From Malacoraja senta (taxonomy: Eukaryota), in the NCBI GenBank assembly GCA_038087875.1, contig CM075990.1, positions 3,908,001 through 3,972,000 of the forward strand: 64,000 nt of DNA. Reading direction: 5' to 3'. The position numbers and the translations under genes are program-made. This document shows positions 1 through 62,506 of the stretch, piece by piece. Positions within the stretch are counted from its first letter, which is position 1, and each line of letters starts with the position of its first letter. A model generated the notes under the pieces. That model was not told where the DNA came from. It searched no databases and saw only the letters and a list, made by a program, of their open reading frames with translations.

Positions 1-319
1 GGCACATGGAAGTACCACCACTTGCAGATCTTCCAAGTCAAACTCGAGCTGATTATTGAAAATCAAAACTGCCAATGCGGGAAATCTAAAATGATAACAG
101 AAAATGCTGGAAATTCTCAGCAGGTCAGGCCACATCTGTGGGAAGAGACATAGTCAACGTTTATGGTTGAAGATCCTTTCAACAGAACTTGGAAAGAGAC
201 AAAAGTGCAGGTACCTAGTTTCCTTTAAAATGGCATCACAGGTAGATAAGGTAGTCGAGAAGGCTTTCAGTACATTGGTCTTCAGTAAAGGGATTGAATA
301 TAGAAGACAGGCACAACAT

Positions 320-562
320 GCCAGAGTAACTCAGCGGGACAGGCAGCATCTCTGGATGGAAGGAATGGGTGACGTTCCGGGTTGAGATCCTTCTTCAGAC
401 TGAAGAAGGGTCTCGACCCGAAATATCACTCGGTCTGAAGAAGCGTGTCGACCCGAAATGTCACCCACTCCTTCCCCAGAGATGGTGCTTATCCTGCTGA
501 GTTACTCCAGCGTTTTGTGTCTTATCTTCAGTCTCAACCAGCATTTGTAGTTCCTTCCTACA
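320..562. mobile_element. Penelope-derived short repeat, head-to-head inverted pair with hammerhead-like cores
   Basis: Palindromic centre CTTCTTCAGACTGAAGAAG (390-408) with mirrored GAGTAACTCAGC / GCTGAGTTACTC arms. The same module terminates the Penelope-like elements at ~28160 and ~61020. Confidence 0.7.
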
Positions 563-1020
563 CATATTGAATATAGAAGTTTGGATGTGTAGGAAAGAAC
601 TGCAGATGCCGGTTTAAATCGAAGGTGGACACAAAATGCTTGGGATGTGATGTTACAGCTGTACAAGATGTTGACGAGGTTGTATTTGGAGTACTGAGTT
701 CAGTTTTGATCACTCTGTTATAGGAAGAATGGTGTTACGCCGGAAAGAATGCAGAGATGATTTATGAGGATGTACCAGACTGAGCTCTAAGGAAATATTC
801 AGCAGGCTAGGACTTTATTCTTTGGAGCACAGGAGAATGTGGGCTCTTAGAGGTTCATACAATCATGAGAGGAATAGATAGGATAGGCACAGTCTTTTAC
901 TCGGAGCAGGGTAATCAAGAACAAGGGAATCTAGGTTTGTGAGAGGGGAAAGATTTGATAGGAACCAGAGGTGGGTGTATGGAAAATGCTGCCGGAGGTG
1001 GTAATTGAGGTAGGTACCAT

Positions 1021-1902: not shown

Positions 1903-2958
1903 GAGAGACAAAGAGTGGAAGACAATCGTAAGCTCCTTGAGTCAAGACATGGGGACTTTGGCAGTATACCTACGACAGTGGCGTCTAAAGCTGAGCGAAG
2001 GCAAAACAGTGTCAACAGCATTCCATCTAAACAAGCTAAGCAAGAGCTAGCTGTCTTCGTTAACAATTGGCGCTTGGACTTCTACCAAATACCAACTTAC
2101 CTCGGCGTAAAGCTGGACAGGTCGCTTACATTTCGTCAACACCTGGCTGGTCTCCACGACAAGGTCATGGCACTTGGCGGCCACATCCGACGCCTGGCAG
2201 GAACAAGTTGGGGAGCCAGCCCATCAACTCTTTGCACCTCTGCCTTAGCTCTTGCGTATGCCCCAGCTGAGTACTGCGCACCTGTATGGAGTAGAGGTAG
2301 ACATACTAGCCTGGTAGACACGAGCCTGAACAGCACCTTGCGAACCATCACTGGGTGCCTTCAACCTACTCCAGTCGAGCAGCTCCCTATATTTGTAGGC
2401 ATTCCGCCTGCAGGGATCCGAAGGCAAGCAGCAACTCTGGCACTATCTCGTCATGCCATGGACCCAGATCACCTCCTCCATCAGGCTATCAGCAGAGAGC
2501 AGAGGCCACCCCGACTGAAGTCCCGTCACCCCTTGGAAAACAACTCCTAGCATCCATCCAGCCAACTGAGACAAAAGCACACTGGATAGCCACCAAGTGG
2601 TCACAGGAGTGGAAGGCAACCTCATCTCCATTACATAGCTACATCCCCTCACCAGATAAAAGCTGTCCAGGGTCTGACCTCCCCAGAGGAGCATGGGTGA
2701 AGCTCAACAGACTCCATACTGGAGTTGGACATTTCAATGCCAGCATGTGGAGATGGCTCTGCCAGAGCCCAGCCTGTGAATGCGGAGCAGAACAACAGAC
2801 AACAAACCATGTCATCTCTGGGTGCCCACTTTACCACCCACCAAATGGAGCTCAGGCAGACATTGACGCCAACAGAGACGACAACCTGGCTGCTCAACAC
2901 CCGGCTTGAGATCTAACTATTCCTTGGATTTATTTATGTTTCATTCGTAAGAAGAAGA
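1903..2958 (+). mobile_element. 5'-truncated non-LTR retrotransposon (RT C-terminus plus CCHC knuckle), I-group/Vingi-like
   Basis: YLGVKLDRSLTF, AEYCAPVW, ITGCLQPTP, WVKLNRL and CECGAEQQTTNHVISGCP across two frames; (AAG)n tail; 11-bp TSD AGTGACTGTAT at 1892-1902 and 2959-2969. Clade assignment is from recall. Confidence 0.75.
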
Positions 2959-3992: not shown

Positions 3993-5268
3993 GTAAGTAT
4001 GAAGTTCCTTTACATTCAAGGAATAAAATAACCTGTAGTTCATATCTTCAGAGCACTCTAGAGTGTTTCACAGCTCGTGAAGTAGCTGTGAGTGCCTTTT
4101 AGAATATGTGTACGAAGGAACTGCAGATGCTGGTTTAGGCTGAAATTGGACACAAAATGCTGGAGCAACTCTGCAGGTCAGAGCATCTCTGGAGAAAAGG
4201 AATAGGTGATGTTTTAGGTCGGAACCCTTCCTTAGACCTTTTAGAATAATTGTTCTGTTTGCTAACCTCTAATTCCCATGTCCATAAATCTGGGATTGTC
4301 CATAACTCCATCCTAATTTGCATCTCTTCCCACTCCTGTGTTTACTTGCCTTCAGTGAACCTTGAACCGTGTCCTTGAACCTTTTGAAAGATACAGCATG
4401 GAAACAAGCCCACCGAGTCCATGCCAACCATCGATCACCCATTCACACTTGTTCTACGTTATCCCTCTTTCTCATCCACTCCCACACTAGGGGCAATTAA
4501 GAGGCCACTTAACACACAAACCCAATCAATCGGGCAAGAAGGCAGTAACATCTCAGACAATTTATCTCCAAGAGTGTTGCCGAGTGTGTTTTATTGTCAT
4601 ATGCACTGAAACAGGACAATGAAACTTACTTGTAGCAGCACAACAGGGTTACAGTTCTCATATTTCTATACCTTCTTCCCGATGGCAGGAGTAAAATGAG
4701 AGCGTGGCCAGGTGGTGTGGGTCCTTGATGCTGAGGCTGCCTTTTTGAGGCAGAGTTTATCGCTTTGATGATAGGGGAGAGTCAGTACTTGTGATGGACC
4801 AGGCAGTGTCCACCTCTTTTTATAATCTTCCTTCTTGGGCATTCGAGTTGTTGAATCAGGCCATGATGCAACCAGTCAATATGATATCTACCGTACATTT
4901 ATGTTCAAGAGTATTCATCGATTAGCAAAACTCCATAATCTTCTGAGGAAGTAGAGGCGTTGATGGGCTTTCTTTATGATTGCATCAATGTGCTGGGACC
5001 AGGAGAGATGCACGCCTGTCTCCACACGTCCATGTGCCTATCTGTTTTGTAATCAAACCATTACAAAGTATTAGGTGAACCACAAAGCATTTATTAAAAC
5101 CCATGCAGAGGGAACAATACGTACTGTGAACCTCTGCCTAACCTGAAAGGACTGTCTGGGTCCCTGGAAAGAGTCGAGGGAGATGATATAGGGACAGGTG
5201 TTGCATCTTCTGTGGTCTTTGGAACCTATATCTGGTCTGTTGGCGTTAACATTTATTCCTCGTTGCAG

Positions 5269-9004: not shown

Positions 9005-9245
9005 AGTGTAGGACGGGACTGCAGATGCTGGTTTAAGCCGAAGATAGACACAAAATGCTGGAGAAACTCAGCGGGACAGGCAGCATCTCTGGAGAGCAGG
9101 AATGGGTGACGTTTCGGATCAAGACCCTTCAGATTGAAGAAGACTGACTGAAGAAGGGGTCTCGACCCAAAACATCACCCATTCCTTCTCTCCATAGATG
9201 CTGCCTGTCCCGCTGAGTTACTCCAGCATTTTGTGTCTATCTTTT
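9005..9245. mobile_element. Penelope-derived short repeat, inverted pair
   Basis: AGATAGACACAAAATGCTGGAG...GGGTGACGTTTCGG mirrored by ...CACCCATTCCTTCTCTCC...CCAGCATTTTGTGTCTATCT; arms of about 100 bp. Confidence 0.75.
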
Positions 9246-10026
9246 ATCTTAAGTGACTGTCAATAACTTTTCTGTCCCATAAAGCACGGTTCTACAATCT
9301 CGGTTCCCATTCTACAAACTCTTTACATTTGAGGTCTATTACCTCCTGAATATCTCAGTCAATCTCATCAAACGAATGTGTTTTCCAGCAGAGAAGCCAA
9401 GAGTGATTATAGTGGACCAGGGCCATCCAGTTGCTCTGCAGTTTCTGTAAATTAGCCTACAATCCTGCACGTCTTTAGAATGTGGGAGGAAACCGCAGCA
9501 TCTGGGCGAAGCCCACACGGTCACAGGAGGAACGTACTAGCCCCACACAGCCAACACCTGTAGTCAGAATTCAACCCGGGTCTCTGGCGTTGTAAGGTAG
9601 CAACTCTACTGGTGTTGCCACCGTGCCATCCTTGCGGCTCTTCTGCCACTGCAGCTTGAGTGCCAGGCCAACAAAGGTGCAGGGCAGATTATGCAGCAGT
9701 CAGGTTTTCTGCCATATCCATTGGAAGATGGTGGAAACAGGCCCTTCGGCCCCACCTGCCCACGCCGCCAAAATGACACAGCTACTCTAGTCCCACCTGT
9801 CCGTATTTAGCTCATATCCCTGCAAACCTGACCTGTCTTATCCATGTATCTTATCTGCAGATGAAGGCTGGAACTGGGACCAGTATTATTACCATGATGG
9901 TCATAGAACGATGCAGCAGGGGAACAGGTGCTACGGGGCTAGTCCCATTTGGACTGCGTTTGATGAGATTACCGAGTGTTACTGGACAAATGTCTTTTAA
10001 AAGTCATATTTGTATCCACATAAATG

Positions 10027-10100
10027 AGGCACCGCTGAGATTCGAACTCAGGATCTCCTGTTTACTAGACAGGCGCTTTAACCAACTAAGCCACGGCACC
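10027..10100 (-). tRNA. tRNA-Thr (anticodon AGT)
   Basis: Reverse complement GGTGCCGTGGCTTAGTTGGTTAAAGCGCCTGTCTAGTAAACAGGAGATCCTGAGTTCGAATCTCAGCGGTGCCT forms a full 74-nt cloverleaf. Anticodon arm CCTGT-CTAGTAA-ACAGG, intact A/B boxes, TTTT terminator ~25 nt downstream (+ strand AAAA 9999-10002). Confidence 0.95.
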
Positions 10101-10784: not shown

Positions 10785-12455
10785 TAGAAAATAGGTGCAG
10801 GAGTAGGCCATTCAGCCCTTCGAGCCAGCACTGCCATTCAATATGATCATGGCTGATCATCTCAAATCAGTACCCGGTTCCAGCTTTTTCCCCATATCCC
10901 TTGATTCCTTTAACAGAGCTAAATCCAGCTCTCTCTTGAAAGCATCCAGTGAATTGGCCTCCACTGTCTTCTGTGGCAGAGAATTCCACAGATGCACAAC
11001 ATTTTTCCTGCATCTAGCCTGTCCAATCCCTAAAGAATTGTATATGTTTCTATAAGATTCCCTCTCATCCTTCTAAATTCCAGTGAATACAAGCCCAGTC
11101 GACCCATTCTTTCGTCATATGTCAGTCACATCATCCCGGGAATTAACCCGGTGAACCTACGCTGCACTCCCTCAATAGCAATAATGTCCTTCCTCAAGTT
11201 AGGAGACCAAAATTGCACACAATACTCCAGGTGCGGTCTCACCAGGGCCCTGTACAACTGCAGTAGGACTTTCTTGCTTCTAAACTCAAATCCTCTCGCA
11301 ATGAAGGCAACATGCCATTAGCTTTCTTCACTGCCTGCTGTACCTGCATGCTTACTTTCAGTGACTGATGTACAAGCACACCCAGGTCTCGTTGCACCTC
11401 CCCTTTTCCTAATCTGACACCATTCAAATAATAATCTATTTTCCTGTTCTTGCCACCAACGTGGATAACCACATATTTATCCACATTATACTGCATCTGC
11501 CATGCATCTGCCCACTCACCCAACCTATCCAAGTCACCCTGCAGCCTCATAGCATCCTCCTCGCAGCTCACACTGCCACCCAGCTTTGTGTCATCCGTAA
11601 CCTTGGAGATGTCACATTCAATTTCCTTGTCTAAATCGATAATATATATTGTAAATAACTGGGGTTCCCAGCACCGAACCTTGTGGCACCCCACTAGTCA
11701 CTGCCTGCCACTCTGAAAAGGACCCGTTAATCCCTACTCTTTGCTTCCTGTCTGCCAACCAGTTCTCTATCCATGTCACTACCCTACCCCCAATACCATG
11801 TACTCTAATTTTGCACACTAATCTCTTGCGTTGGACCTTGTCAAAGGCTTTTTGAAAGTCCAGATACACCACATCCACTGGCTCTCCTTTATCCATTCTA
11901 CTTGTTACATCCTTAAAAAGTTCCAGAAGATTAGTCAAGCATGATTTCCCCTTCATAAATCTAAGCTGACTTTGACCGATCCTGTCACTGCTTTCCAAAT
12001 GCGCTGCTATAACATCTTTAACAATCGATGTAAGGCTAGCTGGTCTATAATTCCCCCTTTTCTCTCTCCCTCCATTATTAAAAAGTTGAGTTACATTGGC
12101 TACCCTCTAGTCCACAGGAACTGATCCAGAGAGAACATTGGAAAATGATCACTAACGCAGCCACGATTTCTAGGGCCACCTCCTTGAGTACTCCGGGATG
12201 TAGACCATCAGGCCCTGGTGATTTATCTGCCTTCAGTCCCAACAGTTTACCTAATACCATTTCCTGACTAATGTGGATTCCCTTCAGTTCCTCCCTCCCA
12301 CTAGATCCTCGGTCCTCTAATATTTCTGGGAGATTGTTTGTGTCTTCCTTAGTCAAGATGGAATCAAAGTACTCGTTTAACTGTTCTGCCATTTCCTTGT
12401 TTCCCATTATACATTCACCTGTCTCTGATTGTAAGGGACCTACATTTGTCTTCCA
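10785..12455 (-). mobile_element. CR1 LINE ORF2 (RT) fragment plus 3' tail, disrupted
   Basis: KSPGPDGLHP, VYLDFQKAFDKV, VTSGVPQGSVLG and RDLGVLVHQSLK split across frames, followed by the typical 3' tail. Confidence 0.9.
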
Positions 12456-15400
12456 ACTCTCTCTTGACAACATGAAAACACTCTTGAAAAAATGGAATAG
12501 GTTGTTGCTGAGTTCATGTATCCAGCAATGTTAAAGCACAATGTTCTAGTGGATCATGCGATGGCGGATGGGATTCACTTAATTGTGCATCGTGATCGAC
12601 ATTGACATCAAACATAAGACATAAGAGCAGAATTAGGCCATTCGGCCCATCGAGTCTACTCTACCATTCAATCATGGCTGATCTACTTTCCCATCTCAAT
12701 CCCATTCTCCTGCCTTCTCGTAACCTTTGACGCCCTTACTGATCCAGAACCTATCAATTTCCACTTTAAAAATACTCAATGACTTGGCCTCCATCTGTGG
12801 CAATGAATTCCACAGTTTCACCACATTCTGGCAAAATAAATTCCTCCTCATCTCCATTCCAAAGGTACGTAATTTTATTTCGAGGCCTGCCCTCTGGCCC
12901 TAGACTTTCCCAGTGGTGGAAACACTCTCCACATCCACTCTATCCAGGCCTTTCATTATCACTGTGCCATTCGACCTGTTCCTGTGCTGCACTGTGCTAT
13001 GTTCTACATAACGACCACAGTTCTGATGAAGGTTATTAGCCCTCTGTTAAGATTTATTTATCTTGATGTTTTGTGGCACTCTGAAGACCATCAAGACTAT
13101 ATAATACAATGGGCACCTGTATCAACAGTGATGTTGAAGAAACAATTACAGTTGTGCTGTAAAATGTTCCAAGGAAGTTCACAACTGTTTGACCAGGCCA
13201 TTCAGCCCCTTAAGTTCAATCCACCTTGAAAACGAATCGCATCAACATAAATACATCAAATCACACCATGAGCTGCAAGAAAACTCCATCCATTCATGCT
13301 CGTAGACGTTGTCAATGAGAAGCTGCTATGGGACACACCGCCGGATGCACAAGACCTGGTAGGTCACAGCCTGTGAAGGGAAGCCACCAAGCCAGCCCTT
13401 GCTCATCGCCCGAAGACCAGAGACCAGAGTGGATGGAGCCGGCAATGATAGGCGCGAGCGAGAACGTGAGGAGCAAGTCGGTGGACTTGCAGGCAGGCGT
13501 GTGAACTGGCGTCTGACCTAGGTCGGCGGTGGGAGGTACAAAGGTGGACGGGCGAGGAGAGGGCCAGCGGTTTGCTGGTCCACCTGCAAAACTAAGGAAG
13601 GCGACGGCTGGAGGTCCCGCAATAGCCTGGGCTCACCTGGATCGGGCAACGCTCATAAGACCTAGAGCGTGGACTGGACTCTGAAAATGGCATCTAAACG
13701 CGGTGCCTCTTGCATGCAGGATCAGTGGACTATTTCTGTACACTTTGCTAATCAGAGATTGTGCTTAGTTATGGCAATACTCTACTGAGCTGTATGTAAG
13801 AAAATAATTTCACTGTGCTTTTGCACTTGTGGAAACAAAGCGCCATTGAACCATTGTAGCATTCTGAAAATTATTTGACCATCAGGTGCAGGATTCTCCT
13901 TGGACCAGTCTCTGTGGCTGAAACTCGAAGCTCTCCAATTTCATCAGGGTTTAACTGAAGTGAGTTGATATGGTATTGCACCAGGATAGCTCTAGAGGAT
14001 GGCAGATGCGTTACTCAAATTACGGAGCAGACCAACAAGAATGTTAACAAATAAGTCACTGAACAGCTGGAAGAAACAGCATTCTGTTGCGAATTTAGTT
14101 CTCATCCTGGAGAGGAACTCTCTACTATCGATGCCCGTGAATTCAGCTCTCAAATTCCCTCCGTAAATCCCTCCGCATCTCCACCATTAACATTCCTGCT
14201 ATTCTTTCAACCTAAATAAGGCCAATTATATGTTTGAGTTTGAGTTTAGTTTATTGTCCAAGCTACAATCGAGCTTGGACACTGGGCAGATACATTACAA
14301 AGGGAATAACACGAATATCGTTTATAGACAATAGACAATAGACAATAGGTGCAGGAGTAGGCCATTTGGCCCTTCGAGCCAGCACCGCCATTCAATGTGA
14401 TCATGGCTGATCATCGCCAATCAGTACCCCGTTCCTGCCTTCTCCCCATATCCCCTGACTCCACTATCTTTAAGAGCCCTATCCAGCTCTCTCTTGAAAG
14501 CATCCAGAGAACCTGCCTCCACTGCCCTCTGAGGCAAAGAATTCCACAGACTCACCACTCTCTGTGAGATAAAGTGTTTCCTCGTCTCCGTTCTAAATGG
14601 CTTACTCCTTATTCTTACAAATTACTTCGAACAAATTACTGAACAGCTGAAATAGTATTATATTACAATTTTAGTTCTCACCCTGCAAAGAAATGCTTTA
14701 CTATTTAGTTTAGTTTGGAGATACAGCGTGGAAACAGGCCCTTCGGCCCTCCGAGTCCGCACCGTCCAGCGATCGCACACACACATTAGTTCTATCCGAC
14801 AAACACTAGGGATGATTTACAATTTTTACAGAAGGCAATTAACCTACAAACTTGCACGTTTTGGGGCAAATCGGAGCACCTGGAGAAAACCCACGCAGGT
14901 CATGTGGAGAACATACAAACTCCGTGCAGACAGCACCTGTAGTTAGGATCGAACCGGGGTCTCTGGCGCTGTGAGGCAGCAACTCTACCGCTGCGCCACC
15001 GTGCCACCCAAGTTTTAACTTTCCTCCAAGGAACATGGTCATTTCTAAACACATCACATCACAGCCGCGATTTGTTAAAGAAGGAACTGCAGATGCTGGA
15101 AAATCGAAGGTACACAAAAATGCTGGAGAAACTCAGCTGGTGCAGCAGCATCTATGGAGCAAAGGAGATAGGCAACGTTTCGGGCCGAAACCCTTCTTCA
15201 GACTGATAGGGGGTGGGGGGAGGCGGGGAGAAGAACAGCCGCGATTTGTCTGGTTTGCAGGCGGCTTGGATCTTCAGTTTCGTCTAGAGATACGGCGCGG
15301 AAACAGGCCCTTCGGCCCACCGTGTCCGCACCGACCAGCAATCCGTGCACCATCCTACACACACTAGGGACAATTTACAGTTATACCAAGCCAATTAACC

Positions 15401-16340: not shown

Positions 16341-17247
16341 GGAGTGGAATGAATGGCGGTGCTGGCTCGAAGGACCGAATGGCCTCCTCCTGCACCTATT
16401 TTCTATGTTTCTATATTTCTATACAACTGGTAGCTCTGTTAAAGGCCTCCCTTGTTGAATAATCTCAGTCCATGTACATTGTCATCGCACAACACTTGAT
16501 CTAACAGCTGCAACTGTATTGATTTCAGACTGGATATAATCTGAGGTGAACGGGAGATACGTTACACACAGCGATACAGTCCCAACAAAACACTGCTGTA
16601 CGTATTTTCAATTTGCCTCATTGGCCTGCTGCATGAAATTGCCATCGAAGGGGCACTTTGAGCTGGGCACAGTGGAAGGAAAAGACAAACTGTTGAAGGA
16701 AATTAGTGGCTCACACAGTATCTGTTGAGGGAAGTGGACAGATAACGTTTGGGTCAACACCCTTCATCTGTTGAACTTTAGCCTTTACTTTCGACACCGA
16801 GACCAGCGATCACTCATGTAAACTAGCACTACACATTACAATTTATGAGGAGGATTTTTTTTTTTGGCCAAAGGGTGGTGAATCTGTGGAACTTACTGCC
16901 TCAGACGGCTGTGTTTAGTTTAGTTTAGTTGGACTTATACTTTGTCTTGTTAATAAATGTTGAGTGCACGAAAAAAAACAACTTCAAGTCTAATGACTCT
17001 GGCCAAATTTAATCTACTTCCCAACTTGCCCAAGATAAGCAAACAAATTGCAGTTGTGAGGCAGTTGCTCTCCCACTGACGCCCAACGTGCCTGCATTGG
17101 TAACTTGGATCCAAACATTCACCTGCACCAATGTTATCTACTCATGAAGATTGGCACTAAATGCTGGAGTAACTCAGCGGGACAGGCAGCATCTCTGGAT
17201 AGAAGGAATGGGTGACGATTACGGTCGAGACCCTTCTTCAGACTGAC

Positions 17248-17450
17248 CAGTAAACCAGCATCTGCAGTTCCGTCCTACACTAAACCACCATCTGCAGTTA
17301 CTTCCTCCACGTTTTTGTAAACCAGCATCTGCAGTTACTTCCTCCATGTTTTGGAAACCAGCATCTGCAGTTCCATCGTACATTAAAGCACCATCTGCAG
17401 TTACTTCCTCCATGTTTTGTAAACCAGCATCTGCAGTTCCTTCCTCCACG
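17248..17450 (+). repeat. ~30-37-bp minisatellite built from the terminus of the Penelope-derived repeat
   Basis: Six copies of AAACCAGCATCTGCAGTT(A/C)C... in tandem. Confidence 0.8.
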
Positions 17451-20129: not shown

Positions 20130-23100
20130 TCAGATGAGAAAACAAATGCATTTTGCTTACATCCATCCTAGATTGGTTGCACTACAGACTTCAGGCATTA
20201 TTCTGATGTTACACTATATATATTTTTAATTTATTTAACTATTTTTCAAATTTTGGCATGTTCATAATAGGAGCAGAATAAGGCCATTCGGCCCATCAAG
20301 TCTCTGCCGCCATTCAATCATGACTGATCTATCTCTCCTTCCTAACCCCATTCTCCTGCCTTCTCCCCATAACCTCTGACACCCGTACTAATCAAGAATC
20401 TACAGTATCAATCTCTGCCTTAAAAATACCCAATGACTTGGCCCCCACAGCCGTTTGTAACAATGAATTCCACAGATTCACCACCCTTTGGTTGGTTATG
20501 ATATTATCACGAGAATACTGTGTTTGCTGCCTGACCCGCTGAGTTACTCCAGCACTTTATGTCTTTTTTTTAATAAACCAAAAATCGAAACCAAAAACTG
20601 CATCTGCAGTTTCTTGGATCTTTCTCTTTCTCTCCTTGTTCGGTACATCAGTTGATTACAAAGAGGTCAACAAGGTGTTAATTACACGAGCAATTAACCT
20701 ACCATCCCACACAGTTTTGTAAAGTGGTCACCGGTAGAACGTGCAAACTCCTCAAAGACAGGACCAAGGTTGGCTTCGAAGCAGGGCGGCACGGTGGTGC
20801 AGCGATAGAGTTGCTGCCTTACAGCGCCAGAGACCTGGGTTCAAACTGTATGGTTTTTGTACGTTCTCCCCGTGACCTGCGTGGGTTTTCTCTGGGTGGT
20901 CCGGTTTTCTCCCACTGTCCAAAGACGTGCGGGTTTGTGTGTTAATTGGCTTGGCAAATGTGTAAATTGCCCCTTGTGTGTGTCGGAAGTTGCTAGTGTG
21001 TGGGGATCGCTGGTCGGCGTGGACTTGGTGGGACGAAAGGCCCGTTTCTGTGCTGTATCTCTAAACTAAACTAAACTAAACTAAACTTGGAGATGCCAGG
21101 CAGCAGCACTACCTGCTGCACTGCGCAGTGCTCCGGGCCCGTTGGTGTGTAAACTGTAGGCCATGAGGTTTATGTTTGTTCCGTTCCAAGCTAAATAAAA
21201 ACTAAACAAATAGTAAATGCGTTATCGCTTGACATCTTTAACTTTGACCTTGGAGTTTGTGCCAATGTTCTGTTGTGCAGCCTTCAGCCACAAGTAAATT
21301 TGACGTATATTGTGTGCTTTGCTCGAAAAATAAAGCACTTCATGGGCAAGTTGGAAACAACAATTCCTGCTCGTGAAGTTTTGTGGTTACACTGGGTTAT
21401 AAGTAGACCTTAATGAGTCAGAATTCTGTCCAGGGAATAGCTAGAGCATTTCGTACCTGTGTTGCACTCACTACATACAGAAGGCACAATCCTGATTACT
21501 GGTGCATCATCTCAAGTGAAGGTGGTCTTCCCACTTGCGGAGAGGTTCGGTTACTAACAGCAAAGGAAAGGACAAAGGTTAGGCAAACATGCCGTTTCTA
21601 GTTTATTTATCTATGAACATTGATTTCTCTAACTTCAAGTAACCCCACCTCTCTCCATCACTCCCCAACCCAAGTCGCACCAGCTTCTCGTTCTCACCTA
21701 GCAAACAGCTAACAATGTCCTGTTTCCTTTATCATTGTATTTTTTGAATACCTTTCATTCATTTGTTCTACATCTCTCTACATCACCGTTTATATCTCTC
21801 GTCTGAAGAAGGGTCTCGACCCGAAACGTCACCATTCCTTCTCTCCAGAGATGCTACCTGTTGTTCCATGCTGTTTAGTTTAGAGATACAGCGTTGAAAC
21901 GGGCCCTTTGGCCCACCGAGTCCGTTCCAACCACACTATCAATATCCTACACACACTAGGACCAATTATACATTCGCACCAAGCCAATTAACCTACAAAC
22001 CAGTACGTCTTTGGAGTGTGGGAGAAAACCCACATGGTTTTCCACAGGGAGAACGTACAAACTCCGTACAGACAGCACCCGTAGTCAGGATCAAAACCAG
22101 GCCTCCAGCGCTACAAGGCAGCAATTCAACCGTTGCGCCACCGTGTGCTGCTGTCTGGAAAAAATAGCCACACGATACTAATGTCTGCCTTTAAAGCACC
22201 AGTGAGATGAATGCGTGTGGCCTTTTTCTGAAGTATAAATGAATGTCGAGTTTGGTTTGAAGAGTGAAGATTGAAGAGTAGTTAATCGCCGTATTTACCG
22301 ACAACAGAGCAATGAAATTCTTACTTGCAGCAGCACAACGGTCACTCCCACTTCTCCCCTCTCCCATCAGGCAAGAGGTACAGAAGTGTGAAAACGACAC
22401 ACCTCCAGATTCAGGGACAGTTTCTTCCCAGCTGTTATCAGGCAACTGAACTCATCAACTAGAGAGCCGTCCTGAGCTACTATCTACCTCATTGAAGACC
22501 CTCAGACCACATTTAATCAGACTTTACTGGACTTTATCTTGCACTAAACGTTATTCCCTTTATCTGTATCTGCACACTGTGGATGATTCGATTGTAATCA
22601 TGTATAGACTTTCCACTGACTGGATAGCATGCAACAAAAAGCTTTTCACTGTACCTCGGTACATGTAACTTTAAACTAAACTAAATTAAACTAAACTAAT
22701 AACAGGCCTGAATTTGAACAGATCTATTTACCTTCTTTAAACATAATAATCACTGGTTCTACAATCCCACATCTTAGTGGCACAGCAGGGCAGCTGATAG
22801 AGTCGCTGCCTCACATCGCCAGAGACCCGGGTTCGATCCTGACCTCGGGATGATGTCCGTACGGAGTTTCTAGTTTCTCCCTGTGACCACGTGGGTTTCT
22901 TCCGGCAGCTCCGATTTCCTCCCGCACGTCAATGGTGCGAATTTGTAGGTTATTTGGCCCTCTGTAAATTGCCCCTGGCGTGTAGGGAGTATATGTGGGG
23001 ATGTGGAATAACATAGAACTAGTGAACAAGTGGTCGCTGGTCGGCGTGGACTCGGTGGGACAAAGGGCCTGTTTCCATGCTCTATCTCTAAAGTAGACTA

Positions 23101-23165: not shown

Positions 23166-23795
23166 AGGGCCTGTCCCACGGCTGTCATTTGCGCTCCATT
23201 TACGAGGTAGCCTGGTAGCGTGTGGGTAGCGCGGGACGGGCGCATGGAGTGTGGAGTTGTGCGCGGTATCGCGCAGCGCTCCAAGATTTCGTTCTGCACG
23301 TAATCTTCGGGCGCCACCGGCCTGTCGCGTAAATGACAGCCAAGTGGGACAACCTGGCGCGGCGCAACGTCTCACCTCCAACAGCAGCAGAAGCAGACAA
23401 ACGATAGCCAAGCTCGGCCTGGGGCTCACGCCCGTTGTGGATCCAGATCCGCCCCCCTCTCCCACTCCCAGAGCGGGACCAAGACAATTGGAGATAGACA
23501 AAAAATGCAGGAGTAACTCAGCGGGACCGGCAGCATCTCTGAAGAGAAGCAATGGGTGACGTTTCGGGTCGAGACCCTTCTTTCAGACTGAAGAAGAGTC
23601 TTGACACGAAACATCATCCATTCTTTCTCTCCAGAGATGCTGCCAGTCCCGCTGAGTTACTCCAGCTTTGTGTCCATCTTCAAATGACGTCACGCGCTCC
23701 AGACGGCTGTGCGGACGCATGATGACGCGCGCGACTGTCGCGCGTCAGTCACTACCGGCCTGTTGCGTAAATGACGGCCAAGTGGGACAGGCCCT
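23166..23795. mobile_element. MITE with AGGGCCTGTCCCAC TIRs (PIF/Harbinger-like) with a nested Penelope-derived palindrome
   Basis: AGGGCCTGTCCCAC...GTGGGACAGGCCCT termini; CpG-rich interior; a second right-end copy at ~23320-23350. Confidence 0.65.
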
Positions 23796-26761: not shown

Positions 26762-28290
26762 CATCTCTGTTCCTCGACCGTAGAAGCAACCTATACCCGG
26801 CCACTGACACCCTCCTCCGCCTAGCGGAGCTGGTCCTTACCCTCAATAACTTCTCATTTGACTCCTCCCATTTCTTCCAAATGCAAGGCGTAGCTATGGG
26901 CACATGGATGGCCCCAGCTACGCCTGCCTCTTTGTCGGGTACGTAGAACAATCCTTGTTCAATGCGTACCAGGGCCCCATCCCCCGACCTCTACCTCCAC
27001 TACATCGATGACTGTTTTGGTGCCACATCCTGCACCCACACAACTGACTGACTTCATCCGCTTCACCACCAACTTCCATCCGGCACTCAAATACACCTGG
27101 ACCATTTCCGACACTTCCCTACCATTCCTTGACCTCACTATCTCCATCGCAGGTGATAGACTTCTTACCGACATCCACTACAAACCTACCGACTCCCATG
27201 GCTATCTGGACTACACTCTTCCCACCCTGCTTCCTGTAAGGACTCCATCCCCACTCCCAATTCCTCCGTCTACACCGCATCTGCTCCAGGATGAGGCGTT
27301 CCACACAAGGGCATCCGAAATGTCCTCATTCTTCAGGGAACGGGGTTCCCCTCCTCCACCATAGATGAGGCTCGCACCAGGGTCTCTGCCATACCCCGCA
27401 ACACTGCTCTCTCTCCCATCCCCCCACTCACAACAAGGGCAGAGTCCCCCTAGTCCTCACCTTTCACCCCACCAGCCGTCACATACAACAAGTGATCCTC
27501 CGTCAGTTTCGCCACATCCAACGTGACCCCACCACTCGCCACATCTTCCATCTCCCCCATGTCTGCCTTCCGCAAAGACCGCTCCCTCTGTAACTCCCTT
27601 GTCAATTCTTCCCTTCCCTCCCGTACCACCCCCTCCCCGGGTACTTTCCCATGCAACCGCAAGAGATGCAACACTTGTCCCTTCACCACCCCCCTCGACT
27701 CCATTCAAGGACCTAAGCAGTCGTTCTAGGTGCGACAGAGGTTCACCTGCATCTCCTCCAACCTCATCTATTGCATCCGCTGCTCTAGATGCCAGCTGAT
27801 CTACATCGGTGAGACCAAGCGGAGGCTTGGCGATCGTTTCGCCGAACACCTCCGGTCGGTCCGCAATAACTAGCCTGACCTCCCGGTGGCTCAGCACTTC
27901 AACTCCCCCTGCCATTCCGTATCTGACCTCTCTGTCCTGGGTCTCCTCCATGGCCACAGCGAGCAACACCGGAAATTGGAGGAAATGCACCTCATATTCC
28001 GCTTGGGCAGTCTACATCCTGGGGGCTTGAACATTGAATTCTCCAATTCTGCTAGCCCTTGCTGTCCCCTCCCTTCATCAGCCCTCTGGTTGTCTCCTCC
28101 CCTCCCCCAGCCCTCGGGCTCCTCTCCGCCTTTTTTCTTTCTTCTCCCCACCCCTATCAGTCTGAAGAAGGGTTTAGGCCCGAAACGTTGTCTATTTCCT
28201 TCGCTCCATAGATGCTGCTGCACCCGCTGAGTTTCTCCAGCATTTTTGTCTACCTCGATTTTCCAGCATCTGCAGTTCTTCTTTAATACT
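26762..28290 (+). mobile_element. Penelope-like retroelement (RT plus GIY-YIG endonuclease), 5'-truncated and disrupted
   Basis: QGVAMGT, YIDD, LPFLDLTI, YKPTDSHGYLDY, and the TCISSNLIYCIRCSRCQLIYIGETKRRLGDRFAEH GIY-YIG-type region; ends in the hammerhead-like module. Confidence 0.9.
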
Positions 28291-30444
28291 CTGTTCCACC
28301 CTGCTGCCTCTGAGATCAAAAACTGTGGTTCGAAAGCCCATCTGGAAACTGGTGCCGAACGTCAACAGAGAGCGGCACTTGGGAGAGCTGCCATCAGTTG
28401 AGTAAAACATTAAGCAAAGACCTGAGCAGGTATTTCAGTAAGGGCGGCACGGTGACGCAGCGGTAGAACTACTACCCTACAGCGCCAGAGACCCGGTTCA
28501 ATCCTGACTACAGGCCCTGTCTGTACGGAGTTTGTACGTTCTCCCCGTGACCTGCGTGGGTTACATCCGAGATCTTCAATTTCCTGCCGCACTCCAAAGA
28601 CGCGCAGGTTTGTAGGTTAATTGGTAAATTGTCCCTAGTGTGTGTGCAGGGTAGTATTAATGTGCGGGGGTCGCTGGTTGGTGCGGACTCGATGGGCCGA
28701 AGGGCCTGTTTCTGCCCTTTCTGTATCTCTAAACAAAACTAAACTAAACTAAAGTACCTCCTGACAACACAGTAAACAGGTGCATGGACAAATATTTTCT
28801 CTGCATCTGATAAAACATTCTGTGAACCTTGTTTCCCCTGCGTTAGTAGAGTTGGTGCAAACATCGACATGGAATTTTGGGTGGCGGTGATTGTTTACAG
28901 GGCAGGGATCATGAGGACAAAGTCTCAGCTGAAACATTCTACAAGCCGCTGTTCCTAATCGCTGTTTTCCCAAGAGGTTGTTGCTCTCCGAGCCAAAATC
29001 AATGGCACCCCTGTTTTCCTCAAGATGCTCAGGGACAGGAGAGTTGAGCTAGAGACTCCAGAAACTGAACATTGACTTCTCCAATTTCAGGTAGTCCCTG
29101 CTTTCCCCCTCCCCTTCCCAGCTCTCCCACAGCCCATTGTCTCCGCCTCTTCCTTTCTTCTTCCCACCCCCCCCCCACCCCCACATCAGTCTGAAGAAGA
29201 GTCTCAAACCGAAACGTCGCCTATTTCCTTCGCTCCATAGATGCTGCCTCACCCGCTGAGTTTCTCCAGCATTTTTGTCTACCAGAAACTGCAGATGCTG
29301 GTTTACCAAACAAAGGACACAAAAAGTGCTGGAGTAACTCAGCAGGTCAGGCAGCATTTCTGGAGAACATGGACAAGTAACGTTTCGGGATGGGTTCAGT
29401 AGGGTTGAGCTGCTATTTTCACTGTATTCCAGGTCTGAGTTGATGTCTCGACCCCGAACGTCACCCATCCCTTCTCTCCAGAGATGCTGCCTGTCCCGCT
29501 GAGTTACTCCAGCATTTTGTGTCTATCTTCGCTGTAAACCAGCATCTGCAGTTCCTTCTTACACTGATTTTAGTTTTGTTTATTACTGTCACGTGTACTG
29601 CGTACAGTGAAAGATTTTTTGTTTGCATGCTATCCAGTCGAAGGAAAAGCTATACATGATGACAATCAAGTCGTCCACACTGCACAGATCAAGCATAAAG
29701 GTCCAACATTTAGTGCAAGATACACTCCGATTAATGATAGTTCAAAGGTTTCCAAAGGGGTAGATGGGAGATCAGGGGCCGCACTCTAGCTGATGAGAGG
29801 ATGCTTCACTTGTCTGATAACAGCTGAGATGAAGCTGTCCCTGAATCTGGAGGTGTGCGTTTTCACACTTCTGTACCTGATGCCTGATGGGAGAGGGGAG
29901 AAGAGGGAGTGACTGGGGGTGAGACTGGTCCTTGATTATGCTGCTGGCCTTGCCGAGGCAGCGTGAAGTGCAGATGGAGTCAATGGAAGGGAGGTTGGTT
30001 TGTGTGATGGTCTGGGCTGCGTCCGCAAATCTCTGCAATATCTTGCGCTCTTGAATGGAGCTGTTCCCAAAGCAAGGGAAGCACATATGTGTCTAAGAAG
30101 CTGAGCAGGTTGGTGTCTGGGAAAGAAGCAGCAGAGTTTGCCTCGGGATTCTACTTGTTGGTCACCTCCTGCTCTCAAGACCAGGGATCACCAGGGCGTG
30201 ACTTTCACTAGAAATTCCCAGACTTATTCAGTACAAAATAATTCATTTTCTTCTGGGAGTTTTTGCAGCATTTAGTTCGGTTTAGATTAGAGGTAAAGCA
30301 TGGAAACAGGCCCTTCGGCCCACCGAGTCCGTGCCGACCATTTTCCTCATCCACCTGCACTTGTTCTATGTTCTACCCTACACACACAAGGGGCAATTTA
30401 CAATTTACAGAGGTGAATTGACCTACAAACCCGCACGTCTTTAG

Positions 30445-34828: not shown

Positions 34829-36014
<1,186 letters not shown>

Positions 36015-38489: not shown

Positions 38490-39020
38490 ATAGATACATA
38501 GATACATAGGTGCAGGAGTAGGCCATTCGGCCCTTCGAGCCTGCACCACCATTCAATATGATCATGGCTGATCATCCAACTCAGTATCCCGTACCTGCCT
38601 TCTCTCCATACCCCCTGATCCCTTTAGCCACAAGGGCCACATCTAACTCCCTCTTAAATATAGCCAATGAACTGGCCTCAACTACTCTCTGTGGCAGAGA
38701 GTTCCAGAGATTCACCACTCTCTGTGTGAAAAAGTTTTTCCTCATCTCGGTCTTAAAGGATTTCCCCCTTATCCTTAAGCTGTGACCCCTTGTCCTGGAC
38801 TTCCCCAACATCGGGAACAATCTTCCTGCATCTAGCCTGTCCAACCCCATAAGAATTTTGTACGTTTCTATAAGATCCCCTCTCAATCTCCTAAATTCTA
38901 GCGAGTATAAGCCAAGTCTATCCAGTCTTTCTTCATATGAAAGTCCTGACATCCCAGGAATCAGTCTGGTGAACCTTCTCTGCACTCCCTCTATGACTAT
39001 AATGTCCTTCCTCAGATTTG
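38490..39020 (-). mobile_element. CR1 LINE 3' end, same young subfamily as 54230-58390
   Basis: Nearly identical to 54230-54765, including the ATACATAG-type tail. Confidence 0.9.
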
Positions 39021-39552
39021 GAATGTATGGAATGTCAGAATGTATCAGAATGTATGGAACAAGCTGCCAGAGGAGGTAGTTGAGGCTGGGACTATCCCAT
39101 CGTTTAAGAAACAGTTGGAGAGTTACATGGATAGGACAGGCTTGGAGGTTTATGGACCAAGCGCAGGCAAGTGGGACTAGTGTAGCTGGGACATTGTTGG
39201 CCGGTGTGGGCAAGTGTGAGCAGAAAGACAGTATATGATTACAATCGACCCATTCACAGTGTACAGATACATGATAATGGAATAAAGTTTAGTGCAAGGT
39301 GAAGCCAGCAAAGTCCGATCAAGGATAGTTATGGAGGGAGATGGGCCAGATGCAGGCAAGGTGATTAGCACAGTTCGGCAATTCGGTTGGCATGGATAAG
39401 GTGGGCTAAATGACTCCATGACTCTGGTGTAAACGGGTGGTTGATGATCGACATAGCTTCGATGGGCCGACCGGCCTGTTTCCATGCTGTGGCACTCTCC
39501 GCTTGACTCTGTATGCTCCTGAAAGGAAATCACATGAGCCATAGAATCATAT

Positions 39553-43006: not shown

Positions 43007-43112
43007 ATTCGCAGAATATCAGTCTCCGCAATACTCGTGAGGAAATTTGCTGAAAGTCTAACGGGGCTTCCACCAAATTCACACACTGGCTTTCTCAAGA
43101 AGGGGAGACAAA

Positions 43113-43231: not shown

Positions 43232-43262
<31 letters not shown>

Positions 43263-43664: not shown

Positions 43665-43699
<35 letters not shown>

Positions 43700-43741: not shown

Positions 43742-43788
<47 letters not shown>

Positions 43789-59211: not shown

Positions 59212-59274
59212 AACGCGATTCCGTTTTTTTTAGCTTTATAGATACTTCATGGAAACAGGCCCTTCGGCCCATCT

Positions 59275-61146
59275 AGCACCATCCCCGACTTCATCAACTC
59301 CGACTCCCTGCCCCCCCAAGCCTCCAACCTCATCGTTCCCCAGCCCCGCACGGCCCGATTTTACCTTCTCCCCAAAATCCACAAACCTGACTGTCCCGGT
59401 AGACCCATTGTCTCTGCCTGTTCGTGCCCCACCGAACTCATCTCCGCCTACCTCGACTCCATCCTATCCCCCTTGGTTAAATCCCTCCCTACCTATGTTC
59501 AAGACACCTCAGACACTCTCCGTCGTCTCCGCGCATTCCATTCTCTAGGCCCTCATCCCCTCATCTTCACCATGGACGTCCAGTCACTCTACACCTCCAT
59601 CCCCACCAGGATGGTCTCAAAGCCCTCCAGTTCTTCCTCGACCGGAGGAGCAACCTTTACCCGTCCACTGATACTCTCCTCCGCCTAGCGGAGTTGGTCC
59701 TTACCCTCAATAACTTCTCGTTTGACTCCTCCCATTTCCTCCAAATACAAGGCGTAGCTATGGGCACACGCATGGGCCCCAGCTACGCCTGCCTCTTTGT
59801 CGGGTACGTTGGACAATCCTTGTTCGATGCGTACCAGGGCCCCATCCCCAACCTCTACCTCCGGCTACATCGACGATTGCTTTGGTGCTACCTCCTGCCC
59901 CCCCACACAACTCACTGACTTCATCCACTTCACCACTAACTTCCATCCGGCACTCAAATACACCTGGACCATTTCTGACACCTCCCTACCATTCCTTGAC
60001 CTCACCATCGCAGGTGATAGACTTCTGACCGACATCCACTATAAACCCACGGACTCCAACGGCTATCTCGACTACTCTTCCTCCCACCCTGCTTCCTGTA
60101 AGGACTCCATCCCCATCTCCCAATTCCTCCGTCTACGCCGCATCTGCTCCGAGGATGAGGTGTTCCACACCAGGGCATCGCAAATGTCCTCATTCTTCAG
60201 GGAATGGGGGTTCCCCTCTCCTACTATAGATGAGGCTCGCACCAGGGTCTCTGCCATACCCCGTAACACTGCTCTCTCTCCCATCCCCCCACTCGCAACA
60301 AGGGCAGAGTCCCCCTAGTCCTCACCTTTCACCCCACTAGCCGGCACATACAACAAACAGTCCTCCGTCAGTTTCGCCACCTCCAACGTGACCCCAACAC
60401 TCGCCACATCTTCCCATCTCCCCCCCTGTCTGCCTTCCGCAAAGACCGCTCCCTCCGTAACTCCCTTGTCAATTCTTCCCTTCCCTTCCCTCCCACTCCA
60501 CCCCCTCCCCGGGCACTTTCCCTTGCAACCGCAAGAGATGCGACACTTGTCCCTTTACCTCCCCCCTTGACTCCATTCAAGGACCTAAGCAGTCGTTCCA
60601 GGTGCGACAGAGGTTCACCTGCATCTCCTCCAACCTCATCTATTGCATCCGCTGCTCTAGATGTCAGCTGATCTATATTGGTGAGACCAAGCGGAGGCTT
60701 GGCGATCGTTTCGCCGAACACCTCCGCTCGGTCCGCATTAACCAACCTGACCTCCCGGTGGCTCAGCACTTCAACTCCCCCTCCCATTCCGTATCCGACC
60801 TCTCTGTCCTGGGGCCTCCTCCACGGCCAGTGAGCAACACCGGAAATTGGAGGAACAGCACCTCATATTCCGCTTGGGCAGTCTGCATCCAGGTGGCATG
60901 AACATTGAATTCTCACAATTCTGTTAGCCCTTGCTGTCTCCTCCCCTTCCTACCTCTCCCTCAGCCCTCGGGCTCCACCTCCTCCTTTTTCCTTTCTTCT
61001 CCCCCCCACCCCCCATCAATCTGAAGAAGGGTTTCGGCCCGAAATGTTGCCTATCTCCTTCGCTCCATAGATGCTGCTGCACCCGCTGAGTTTCTCCAGC
61101 ATTTTTGTGTGCCTTCGATTTTCCAGCATCTGCAGTTCCTTCTTAA
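59275..61146 (+). mobile_element. Penelope-like retroelement (RT plus GIY-YIG), disrupted, in MAT1A intron 3
   Basis: FTMDVQSLYTSIP, QGVAMGTRMGPSYACLFVG, YIDDCFG and IYCIRCSRCQLIYIGETKRRL; closely similar to 26762-28290; ends in the same terminal module. Confidence 0.92.
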
Positions 61147-62506
61147 ACCCTTCGGCCCACCGACTCCATGCCGACTATCGCTCACCCATTCACATTGATT
61201 CTGTGTGACCCCAGGTTCTCATCCGTGGGAGGACGTGATCGTGCAGTCTGCAGCGTTTACGCCCCCAAAACCAAGTCGTGCAGATGCACAAAAGCTAAAT
61301 ACATTCAAGTTTCTCTCAGTGAGGGGAAGTATCATTTAAAACTCAATAGAATGAAGTTGATAAGAACTCCGTCAAGTTGTATTTTCTTTTTGCATTTAGT
61401 TTAGTTTAGTGCAGGTTATTATTGTCATGTGTACCGGGGTCACAGTGAAAAGCTTTAGTGCGCTTGCTGTTCAGTCAAAGAGAAGACTGTACGTCAATGC
61501 CGTCAAGTCGTCTGCCATTTTGTAAATGGTACAGGAAAATTAATTCTCAAGTAGCAATTTTAGTATTAGTATTTGGATTTAATAGTTGTGGTGCCTTAGG
61601 GCAGTGGTGGATGTCACTTGATACTGGATTGTACTAGATAGCAAAAAAAAGAACAAAATACTGGCTATGCTGAAAAAAGGCACAAAATGCTGGAGTAACT
61701 CAGCAGGTCAGGCAGCGACTCTGGAGAACATGGACTGGTGACGTTTTTCCCCTACTCCGGACCGTTCTTCAGACTGAGGTGGGACCTAAGGGAGAAAGCT
61801 GGAAGAGAGGTGCGGGCAGGACAAAGCTTGGCAAGTGATAGGTGGATACAGGTGAGGGGGTGGGGGGAGGGAGCAAAGGCCAGAGAGGAAGTGGCAAAAA
61901 GAGTGGGATGAGGATAGATGAGGTGAAAATGTGAAGCCAGAGAAAGGAATCTTGGGCGAAGTGGACAAGGGGAGGGGGATGTGGACAAATAGGTGTGGCA
62001 CAGGGAGGAAGGGCGGGAAGAACAAAAAGGGGGGATTATTAGTAAATTAGTTACCTGAAATTGGAGAGTTAGACAATAAAACCATAAGACAGTGGAGAGG
62101 AATTAGGCCATTCGGCCCATCAAGTCTATTCTGCCATTTGATCTATTTTTTTCCTCTCAACCCCATTCACCTGCCATCTCCAGATAACTTTTGATGGCGT
62201 TACTAATCAAGAACCTATCTATCTCCACTTTAAAAATACCCAATGTCTTGGCCTCCACAGCCGTCTGTGGCAATGAATTCCACAGATTCACCACCCTCTG
62301 GCTAAAAAGAAATTCCTCCTCCTCTCCTTTCCAAAAATAGGTCCTTTTATTCTGAGGCTGTTCCCTCTGGTCCTCGATTCCCCCACTAGTGGAAACATCC
62401 TCTCCACATCCACTCTATCCAGGCTTTTCATTGTCTGGTAGTTTGCAATGAGACCGCCCCCCCCTCCCCATTGCTAATGGTCTGGCGGGTGTTTTCCCGG
62501 CTGCAG

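What the first reader, a model, noticed from the sequence alone, without database searches (positions are those of the whole stretch)
21801..21835. Minimal hammerhead ribozyme core in one of the window's most abundant short repeats
Seen: CTGAAGA (21803-21809), an extra A, stem GGGTC-TC-GACCC, GAAA (21823-21826) and CGTC, i.e. CUGANGA / stem II / GAAAC-GUH. Other copies vary stem II but keep pairing (GGGT-TTCG-GCCC at ~15180 minus; GGGT-TTAG-GCCC at ~28170). The same module ends both Penelope-like elements. Established: Penelope-like elements carry minimal type I hammerheads with a palindromic, loopless stem III thought to act as dimers. Inference: a ribozyme-bearing non-autonomous Penelope family that has amplified massively here, with roughly 25 or more copies in 64 kb by eye, many decayed at CpGs.
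Basis: partly seen in the sequence, partly recalled or inferred. Interest (0 to 1): 0.7.

Follow-up and report, generated by a model that had tools for sequence, protein, structure and literature searches.

The report
Penelope retroelement minimal hammerhead ribozyme relics
The motif is a real copy of the small hammerhead ribozyme that Penelope-like jumping genes are already known to carry in their end repeat, scattered here in dozens of mostly decayed short copies, so the catch is correct but the kind is known.

Summary
Confirmed. 21801-21832 is a minimal type I hammerhead: CUGAAGA, extra A, 4-bp stem II with tetraloop, loopless ACGU stem III, GUC site, stem I of only 2 bp. It heads a ~135-nt module (hammerhead plus ~105-nt tail) found as 53 fragments in 26 loci, 7% of the window; 3 of 33 core-bearing copies are intact. 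The module follows the GIY-YIG stop codon and 3' UTR of Neptune-type Penelope-like elements (PLEs); the best protein relatives are from skates. The reported copy is itself such a PLE 3' end. Copies show PLE hallmarks: two 3' ends ~35 nt apart, target duplications, back-to-back inversions. 22 of 33 copies start just upstream of CUGA, none of 53 fragments within 2 nt of the cleavage site, and RNA reads show no pile-up of ends there. So the copies came from uncleaved RNA, probably as short RT run-offs; a separate non-autonomous lineage is not shown. Cleavage is untested; covariation is not significant. The class was described in 2014 (PMC4209133), and this scan has noted it before in other genomes, shark and ray-like ones among them. 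New member of a known kind.

The parts
21613..21642 (+). last codons and stop of a PLE ORF (MNIDFSNFK*), 5'-truncated
   Evidence: translation; matches the ORF ends at 27974-28046 and 60845-60914 through the piece at 58440-58570
21643..21800 (+). pyrimidine-rich 3' UTR of the PLE (A subfamily), with a short deletion just before the ribozyme
   Evidence: aligns with the UTRs of the 47754 and 54071 copies; the deletion is my reading
21801..21802 (+). stem I, 5' strand (G2.2, U2.1); pairs with 21831-21832 only
   Evidence: sequence; pairs kept in 82% of cells; no conserved extension found
21803..21810 (+). catalytic core C3-A9 (CUGAAGA) plus the extra A between 9 and 10.1
   Evidence: extra nucleotide is a listed min-HHR trait (PMC4209133)
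21811..21822 (+). stem II, GGGU/ACCC with CUCG tetraloop (G10.1-C11.1 closing pair)
   Evidence: RNAalifold; pair counts
21823..21830 (+). GAAA core, loopless palindromic stem III (ACGU) and cleavage triplet GUC; predicted cut between 21830 and 21831
   Evidence: sequence; H17 is C (22) or U (8) in all 30 aligned copies
21831..21860 (+). stem I 3' strand and first 30 nt of the conserved tail; the rest of the tail is missing in this copy
   Evidence: nhmmer match ends at model position 64
26774..28288 (+). PLE remnant 1 (B subfamily): broken RT-linker-GIY-YIG ORF (stop 28053-28055), UTR, intact hammerhead 28160-28191, full tail; possible target duplication at 26765/28289
59274..61147 (+). PLE remnant 2 (B subfamily), 90% identical to remnant 1, with GIY-YIG domain, CX4CxxC linker and hammerhead 61019-61050 (two core-adjacent changes); 12-14-bp target duplication at 59260/61148
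15076..15234 (-). short B copy: ~30 nt of UTR, intact hammerhead (GUU), long tail, 15-bp target duplication
4107..4236 (-). module-only insertion that begins at U2.1/G2.2, 12-bp target duplication
298..565 (.). back-to-back inverted pair (short-ended minus arm, long-ended plus arm with a restarted core), 14-bp target duplication
9005..9242 (.). back-to-back inverted pair, long plus short arm, 10-12-bp target duplication
17144..17449 (.). short-ended minus arm joined to six head-to-tail copies of the tail end, 11-14-bp target duplication
23488..23682 (.). back-to-back inverted pair joined at the near-palindrome just upstream of CUGA, both arms short

Best explanation
The motif is the minimal hammerhead in the pseudo-LTR of Neptune-type Penelope-like retroelements of a skate-like genome. 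In the live element it would cleave after GUH only weakly, as a dimer through the ACGU palindrome and probably with help from the element's protein (inferred from other PLEs; not shown here). The high copy number comes from the element's own RT-endonuclease: it nicks the target, primes inside the RNA at one of two sites about 97 and 132 nt downstream of C3, and copies leftwards (two 3' ends and target duplications shown; the priming step inferred). Some cDNAs run on into the 3' UTR and ORF and are 5'-truncated at scattered points, like the reported copy. Most stop a few bases upstream of CUGA, most likely because the template RNA, uncleaved, begins there (fixed edge shown; its cause inferred). 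Two cDNAs primed on opposite strands join at their ends and give the back-to-back pairs. Nearly all copies are dead relics, transcribed passively.
For: All listed min-HHR core traits present. Subfamily differences avoid the 13 invariant positions (0 of 13) and the 5 that fall in the ribozyme fit the fold: two wobbles, two loop positions, H17 C/U. Module follows the stop of GIY-YIG ORFs (Pfam PF01541; CX4CxxC linker and CCHH motif; best relatives Leucoraja 82%, Rhinoraja 78%). 3' ends bimodal: 16 short, 25 long, 12 other of 53, and loose ends at 28254/28255 and 28278 in public reads, like the two RT starts and optional tail of the anole PLE (PMC11167929). 9 of 12 inverted pairs have one long and one short arm, 3 short-short, none long-long. 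22 of 33 core-bearing copies lack UTR and begin at the module edge; none of 53 fragments begins within 2 nt of the cleavage site; 369 RNA reads run into unrelated sequence before 28160. No pile-up of RNA ends anywhere on the laid stretch, and the module is read about equally on both strands.
Against: No cleavage assay. No significant covariation (5 pairs with a two-sided change against 4.0 +/- 1.6 in shuffles). Core no better kept than the tail across copies; the subfamily contrast reaches only P = 0.06 on groups I chose. The hammerhead dimer fold scores -6.3, -7.1 and +2.1 kcal/mol against -20 to -34 for other dimer folds. Stem I (2 bp) is shorter than the 4-5 bp of the Schistosoma min-HHRs in PMC4209133. 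No full-length element or 5' pseudo-LTR lies in the window, so the RNA start is not seen. 15 of the 22 edge starts sit next to an inverted partner, where the near-palindrome upstream of CUGA could fix the junction by itself.
Confidence: 0.7

Rival explanations
1. A true non-autonomous, SINE-like family: one or a few ~135-nt master copies with their own promoter are transcribed and mobilised in trans by PLE protein.
For: Fixed 5' edge and two fixed 3' ends; a TSD-flanked module-only insertion at 4107-4236; 11 of 16 edge copies in the tree fall in one weakly supported group; PLE-derived non-autonomous elements are described (bioRxiv 10.64898/2026.07.22.740005; PMC8557442).
Against: That group also holds 3 UTR-bearing copies, and edge copies occur in the C group and among the old copies too; the label needs 8 changes. 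The reported copy carries ORF end and UTR.
Confidence: 0.25
2. The motif descends from a hammerhead but no longer works as a nuclease in this lineage; it is kept as part of a structured RNA end (protein binding, RNA dimerisation through ACGU, or an internal promoter) together with the equally conserved tail.
For: 2-bp stem I and an unfavourable active fold; core can pair with the downstream pyrimidine run; no copy starts at the cut site; no RNA ends there; in the anole PLE, ribozyme mutants still insert in vitro (PMC11167929).
Against: All catalytic positions and the NUH rule are kept in three subfamilies although three CpGs lie in the 29-nt core; the anole ribozyme does cleave once protein is added. 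The RNA test has little power: poly(A) library, about 6% of one run, mostly dead copies, species not known to be the window's.
Confidence: 0.25
3. The fixed 5' edge marks a splice acceptor (pyrimidine run plus CAG just before U2.1), as at the Drosophila virilis Penelope intron, or only a microhomology joint, not an RNA start.
For: All 11 UTR-bearing copies have 73-97% pyrimidines upstream and 6 of them end in CAGT; the D. virilis intron ends at a 2-bp helix I (PMC4209133); 15 of 22 edge starts abut an inverted partner.
Against: No GT..AG joint with RNA support among the 15 joints listed (98 more not shown); no shared upstream exon among the unpaired edge copies; the 4107-4236 insertion starts at the edge with target sequence directly upstream.
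Confidence: 0.15
4. Non-LTR retrozyme that makes circular RNA from tandem hammerheads.
For: Type I hammerhead in a short dispersed repeat; retrozymes are reported from one chondrichthyan.
Against: No head-to-tail array of whole units among 53 fragments; the only direct neighbours are two cores 35 nt apart inside one composite insertion. The ribozyme is minimal, not canonical.
Confidence: 0.04

Closest known systems
Minimal hammerheads (min-HHR) in the pseudo-LTRs of metazoan Penelope-like elements (Cervera and De la Pena 2014, PMC4209133; Lunse et al., PMC5785218, not held, seen only as cited in PMC6765202)
   Same: Type I layout, full core, extra nucleotide between 9 and 10.1, G10.1-C11.1, palindromic loopless stem III; most copies dispersed singly; pairs on opposite strands close together; reported in fish Xena, Poseidon and Neptune elements.
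   Different: Stem I only 2 bp (4-5 bp in the Schistosoma examples; 2 bp in D. virilis); stem II 4 bp with tetraloop (7-8 bp in Schistosoma). No cartilaginous fish is named in the parts I read or in the two supplement files searched (file 1 not searched).
Poseidon element PAc of Anolis carolinensis (Frangieh et al. 2024, PMC11167929)
   Same: Hammerhead followed by two internal RT start sites that give the optional tail; both DNA strands cut and extended; no RNA-seq ends at the cut site.
   Different: Neptune-type protein here; the long tail read from its ATG meets a stop within about 30 codons in the A and B copies (my reading), whereas the PAc ORF starts in stem II; activity untested here.
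Neptune-clade PLEs (as described in Craig et al. 2021, PMC8557442)
   Same: RT, CX2-5CxxC linker, C-terminal GIY-YIG with CCHH; 5' truncation, adjacent inverted copies, 30-40-bp tail at one end.
   Different: Only truncated, broken ORFs here; no RT tree was built, so Nematis is excluded only by host range (recalled).
Non-LTR retrozymes (PMC7229834; bioRxiv 10.64898/2026.07.22.740005)
   Same: Short non-coding hammerhead-bearing repeats related to PLE pseudo-LTRs.
   Different: Retrozymes are tandem arrays; here copies are solo or back-to-back and many keep PLE UTR.

Membership tests
PLE min-HHR | Conserved core CUGANGA / GAAA / UH | tested here: met
   intact in 3 of 33 copies and in all three subfamily consensuses
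PLE min-HHR | Extra nucleotide between 9 and 10.1, and G10.1-C11.1 pair | tested here: met
   A21810; G-C in 23 of 30 copies
PLE min-HHR | Palindromic 15.2-16.2 with little or no loop 3 | tested here: met
   ACGU; A-U 27 of 30, C-G 21 of 30
PLE min-HHR | Short helix I (4-5 bp in Schistosoma; 2 bp in the D. virilis variant) | tested here: inconclusive
   2 bp only, no conserved extension in 8 UTR-bearing copies: fits the D. virilis variant, not the longer form
PLE min-HHR | Lies in the flanking repeat of a PLE | tested here: met
   3' side, after the ORF stop in four copies: 21803, 28162, 29191, 61021; the 5' repeat could not be seen (no full-length element, no genome held)
PLE min-HHR | Self-cleavage as a dimer or with protein | not testable with these tools
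   RNA reads show no pile-up of ends (weak test)
Neptune-clade PLE | C-terminal GIY-YIG endonuclease with CCHH motif | tested here: met
   PF01541 at E 1e-4, just over its cut-off; CxxC between the two halves and downstream histidines
Neptune-clade PLE | CX2-5CxxC linker between RT and EN | tested here: met
   CNRKRCNTC and CNRKRCDTC in the two remnants; motif defined in PMC8557442
Neptune-clade PLE | RT phylogeny | not tested
   RT is broken; no Pfam hit on the five PLE pieces other than the EN
Neptune-clade PLE | 5' truncation, inverted 5' copies, optional 30-40-bp tail | tested here: met
Non-autonomous (SINE-like) PLE family | Fixed ends | tested here: met
   22 of 33 start at the module edge; two 3' ends
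Non-autonomous (SINE-like) PLE family | Own lineage, distinct from autonomous copies | tested here: inconclusive
   labels mixed on a poorly resolved tree of 33 copies
Non-LTR retrozyme | Head-to-tail tandem units each with a hammerhead | tested here: not met
   (window only)
Non-LTR retrozyme | Circular RNA intermediate | not tested
   poly(A) reads cannot show it

The most novel reading that the evidence does not exclude
In skates the PLE transcript starts at the first base of the hammerhead, and the ribozyme's ACGU palindrome serves chiefly to pair two uncleaved RNAs in one RT-dimer complex; each RNA templates one arm, from the long and from the short start site, which is why most insertions are module-only run-offs and why back-to-back pairs are long-plus-short and never long-plus-long (9, 3 and 0 of 12). 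The genome would then be a fossil record, in very large numbers, of a two-template PLE insertion mechanism.
Probability: 0.15. Interest if true: 0.55.

Novelty: new member of a known kind. Interest (0 to 1): 0.25.

Why it matters
As a ribozyme it adds a skate example to a class known since 2014. The useful part is the insertion record: fixed 5' edge upstream of the core, no starts at the cut site, two 3' ends and long-plus-short inverted pairs agree with the one in vitro study of a PLE (uncleaved RNA is the template, RT primes at two internal sites) and extend it to the Neptune clade. That bears on an open question, what PLE hammerheads are for, and a skate genome offers a very large sample to test it. 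The module is also carried passively in host transcripts, but nearly all copies are dead.

Tried and rejected
No genome is held for this window, so all copy statistics are from 64 kb. Rfam finds no hammerhead at E up to 10; not evidence against, as I recall no model for this minimal form. The exact-motif scan of metagenome contigs found nothing. Pfam did not recognise the broken RT pieces. Covariation tests were not above shuffles; one search used wrongly placed columns and is disregarded. A longer stem I was sought and not found. The splice-acceptor idea got no support from the listed joints. Automated 5' boundaries of -7 to -21 are chance extensions into the pyrimidine-rich inverted partner; one search reclassified them. 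Target duplications were found at 8 of 25 loci tested, one or two of them weak, none for the reported copy's type at 47625 or 53938; the reported copy itself was not in that list and showed none. Look-ups of earlier scan notes by sequence gave nothing. Lunse et al. could not be read. Literature searches listed no paper on skate or shark PLE hammerheads as such; the library lacks most subscription journals and Repbase/Dfam could not be searched.

Full report
Observation. Read as a type I hammerhead, stem II is 4 bp with a tetraloop, stem III is the loopless palindrome ACGU, the cut would fall between 21830 and 21831, and stem I is G21801-U21802 with A21831-C21832. The strict pattern occurs 5 times against 0.01 expected; 32 places lie within 10 mismatches of the core against 0.5 in 20 shuffles. 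No Rfam hammerhead family matches at E up to 10.

The repeat is larger than the motif. The core heads a module of about 135 nt whose 105-nt tail is as well kept. A profile built from 10 copies finds 53 fragments (0 in the reversed window) in 26 loci, 7.3% of the window; a covariance model from 30 copies finds 43 (its training copies match by construction). Thirty-three copies keep the 5' part of the core. Eleven match the core pattern, and 3 of them (21803, 15201, 28162) also keep stem II, the C-G of stem III and both stem I pairs. CpG columns are 77% identical against 86% elsewhere, and 42 of 61 changes there are C>T or G>A; two CpGs sit on G12 and on the stem III palindrome, so decay kills most copies.

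Host element. Two remnants, about 26774-28288 and 59274-61147, 90% identical over 1,542 columns, encode broken RT motifs, a CX4CxxC linker and a C-terminal endonuclease with a CxxC between its two halves; the endonuclease piece hits Pfam GIY-YIG just over the cut-off. The linker and CCHH motif mark the Neptune and Nematis clades (PMC8557442, passages); Neptune is my call by host range, with no RT tree. The nearest of 41 relatives are from Leucoraja (82%) and Rhinoraja (78%), then other sharks and rays, so the genome is probably a skate's. Fourteen of 22 listed runs, from 8 coded organisms, hold half or more of the sampled words of remnant 2. The module follows the stop codon and a pyrimidine-rich UTR in both remnants, in the copy at 29191 and in the reported copy, which carries MNIDFSNFK* at 21613-21642. 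Three subfamilies (A, B, C) with different UTRs share the module, plus some old copies.

Is it a ribozyme? The anatomy meets the traits listed for PLE min-HHRs: extra nucleotide after position 9, G10.1-C11.1, palindromic 15.2-16.2 (PMC4209133, parts 1-2 of 4 read). Position 17 is C or U in all 30 aligned copies. Between majority sequences of the three subfamilies (26 of the 30 copies assigned by me; 54071 and three old copies left out), 0 of 13 invariant positions differ, against 14 of 60 in the first part of the tail (P = 0.06); the 5 differences inside the ribozyme are two wobbles, two loop positions and position 17. Against this: identity across copies is 89% in the non-CpG core and 86% in the tail (P = 0.99), though 49% upstream; two-sided changes are not above shuffles (5 against 4.0 +/- 1.6; 0 of 18 pairs in 14 full-length copies); the active dimer fold is far from the best fold for all three intact copies, and the reported copy's monomer folds no better than shuffles (z = +1.67). 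Low or protein-dependent activity is what others found: weak dimer cleavage, none without protein for the anole element (PMC11167929, parts 1-2 of 4 read), 1 of 9 Xenopus dimers active (bioRxiv 10.64898/2026.07.22.740005, parts 1-3 of 5 read).

How the copies arose. The 3' ends are bimodal: 16 of 53 end 90-107 nt after C3, 25 at 125-134, 12 elsewhere. Public reads laid on remnant 1 give the same two ends (loose ends at 28254/28255 and 28278). This is the optional PLE tail, which in the anole element lies between two internal RT start sites. Target duplications of 10-15 bp flank several insertions. Twelve back-to-back pairs were scored: 9 long-plus-short, 3 short-short, none long-long. At the 5' side, 11 of 33 core-bearing copies keep UTR, 15 abut an inverted partner and 7 abut unrelated sequence (one of the 7, at 25625, is in fact half of an old pair); one more UTR-bearing copy, 41201, has lost the 5' core. 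Fourteen of 53 fragments start in the 8-nt window from -6 to +1 (P about 1e-11 under a uniform model), none within 2 nt of the cut site at +28. The insertion at 4107-4236 starts at U2.1/G2.2 directly after its target duplication, and 369 RNA reads run into unrelated sequence before 28160, the same base. The templates were therefore uncleaved. The simplest cause of the edge is that the RNA began there: D. virilis Penelope is transcribed from an internal promoter in its pseudo-LTR (PMC2377424, passages), and the bases before the core resemble an initiator (recalled consensus; not tested). RT priming in the 5' copy of the module would then run off after 100-135 nt. A microhomology joint at the near-palindrome before CUGA can explain part of the clustering in the pairs, and a splice acceptor is a further rival.

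Non-autonomous family? On a tree of 33 copies, module-only and UTR-bearing copies are mixed (8 changes each; shuffles as low in 29 and 62 of 500; only 2 well-supported branches). A separate lineage is neither shown nor excluded.

Expression. In one poly(A) run of raw reads (organism J, about 6% read, not known to be the window's species), 9,272 reads were laid on 27640-28320; depth is about 6,100 on the module and 500 on the ORF, the module about equal on both strands; no place shows a pile-up of ends, and no GT..AG joint with RNA support is among the 15 listed (98 not shown). This looks like passive transcription of many copies and is a weak test of cleavage.

Comparison and verdict. Cervera and De la Pena describe these motifs in fish Neptune elements, as dispersed single copies probably from truncated PLEs, and as close pairs on opposite strands. 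Inverted truncated copies and the one-ended tail are standard PLE features. Reviews (PMC6765202 and PMC7229834, passages) treat the class as established; Lunse et al. I saw only as cited there. My six searches listed no paper on skate PLE hammerheads as such; supplement file 1 of PMC4209133, the preprint's tables and Repbase were not seen and may hold them. Earlier notes of this scan report the same kind in other genomes, including a shark, a ray-like fish and a 130-base mini form (unchecked leads). Verdict: a real, correctly identified PLE minimal hammerhead; a new member of a known kind; interest 0.25. The part worth keeping is the end statistics, which point to uncleaved templates and possibly to two-template insertion.

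Noticed in passing
window 17250-17449: Six head-to-tail copies of the last 30-37 nt of the tail inside one insertion with a target duplication: repeated re-priming by the RT, later tandem duplication, or both.
   Followed up: partly
module tail, e.g. window 28209-28272: Conserved 8-bp stem (AGAUGCUG with CAGCAUCU) closing an inner hairpin; its 3' arm lies between the short and long ends, so only long copies can form it. No compensatory changes.
   Followed up: partly
module tail, e.g. window 21836-21853: A second pyrimidine run ending in AG just before an ATG; looks like a splice acceptor, and the same run can pair with the catalytic core in monomer folds.
   Followed up: partly
window 400-427: Copy in which the stem III CpG has become TA, so the palindrome and pairing survive.
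   Followed up: no
window 10026-10100 (-): tRNA-Thr(AGT), 66.7 bits.
   Followed up: no
window ~21873-22150 (-), ~28440-28750 (+) and many other places: Abundant SINE-like repeat with a TAAAC-type tail; resembles the elasmobranch HE1 SINE (name recalled, not tested). One copy follows the cut tail of the reported element.
   Followed up: no
window 11239-12530 (-), 55703-58080 (-), 38581-39288 (-) and others: Many CR1-like LINE fragments: RT (PF00078) at 11621-12106 and an esterase-like ORF1 (Lipase_GDSL_2) at 57424-58080.
   Followed up: no
window 1897-2909 (+): Broken ORF of another LINE-like element, no Pfam hit on the piece scanned.
   Followed up: no
window 59260-61161: PLE remnant 2 sits inside the end of another repeat, with the target duplication taken from it.
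   Followed up: no
window 5125-5217 (-), 58440-58570 (-), 53654-53712 (+): Further PLE endonuclease or ORF-end scraps; the one at 58440-58570 is inverted against the UTR and module at 58590-58838.
   Followed up: partly
window 34830-35350, 43090-44140, 44930-45800: Long (CA)n/(GT)n microsatellite tracts.
   Followed up: no
window 27640-28076: RNA reads on the PLE ORF have the first mate on the plus strand about 2:1, which in most stranded libraries means antisense to the element.
   Followed up: no
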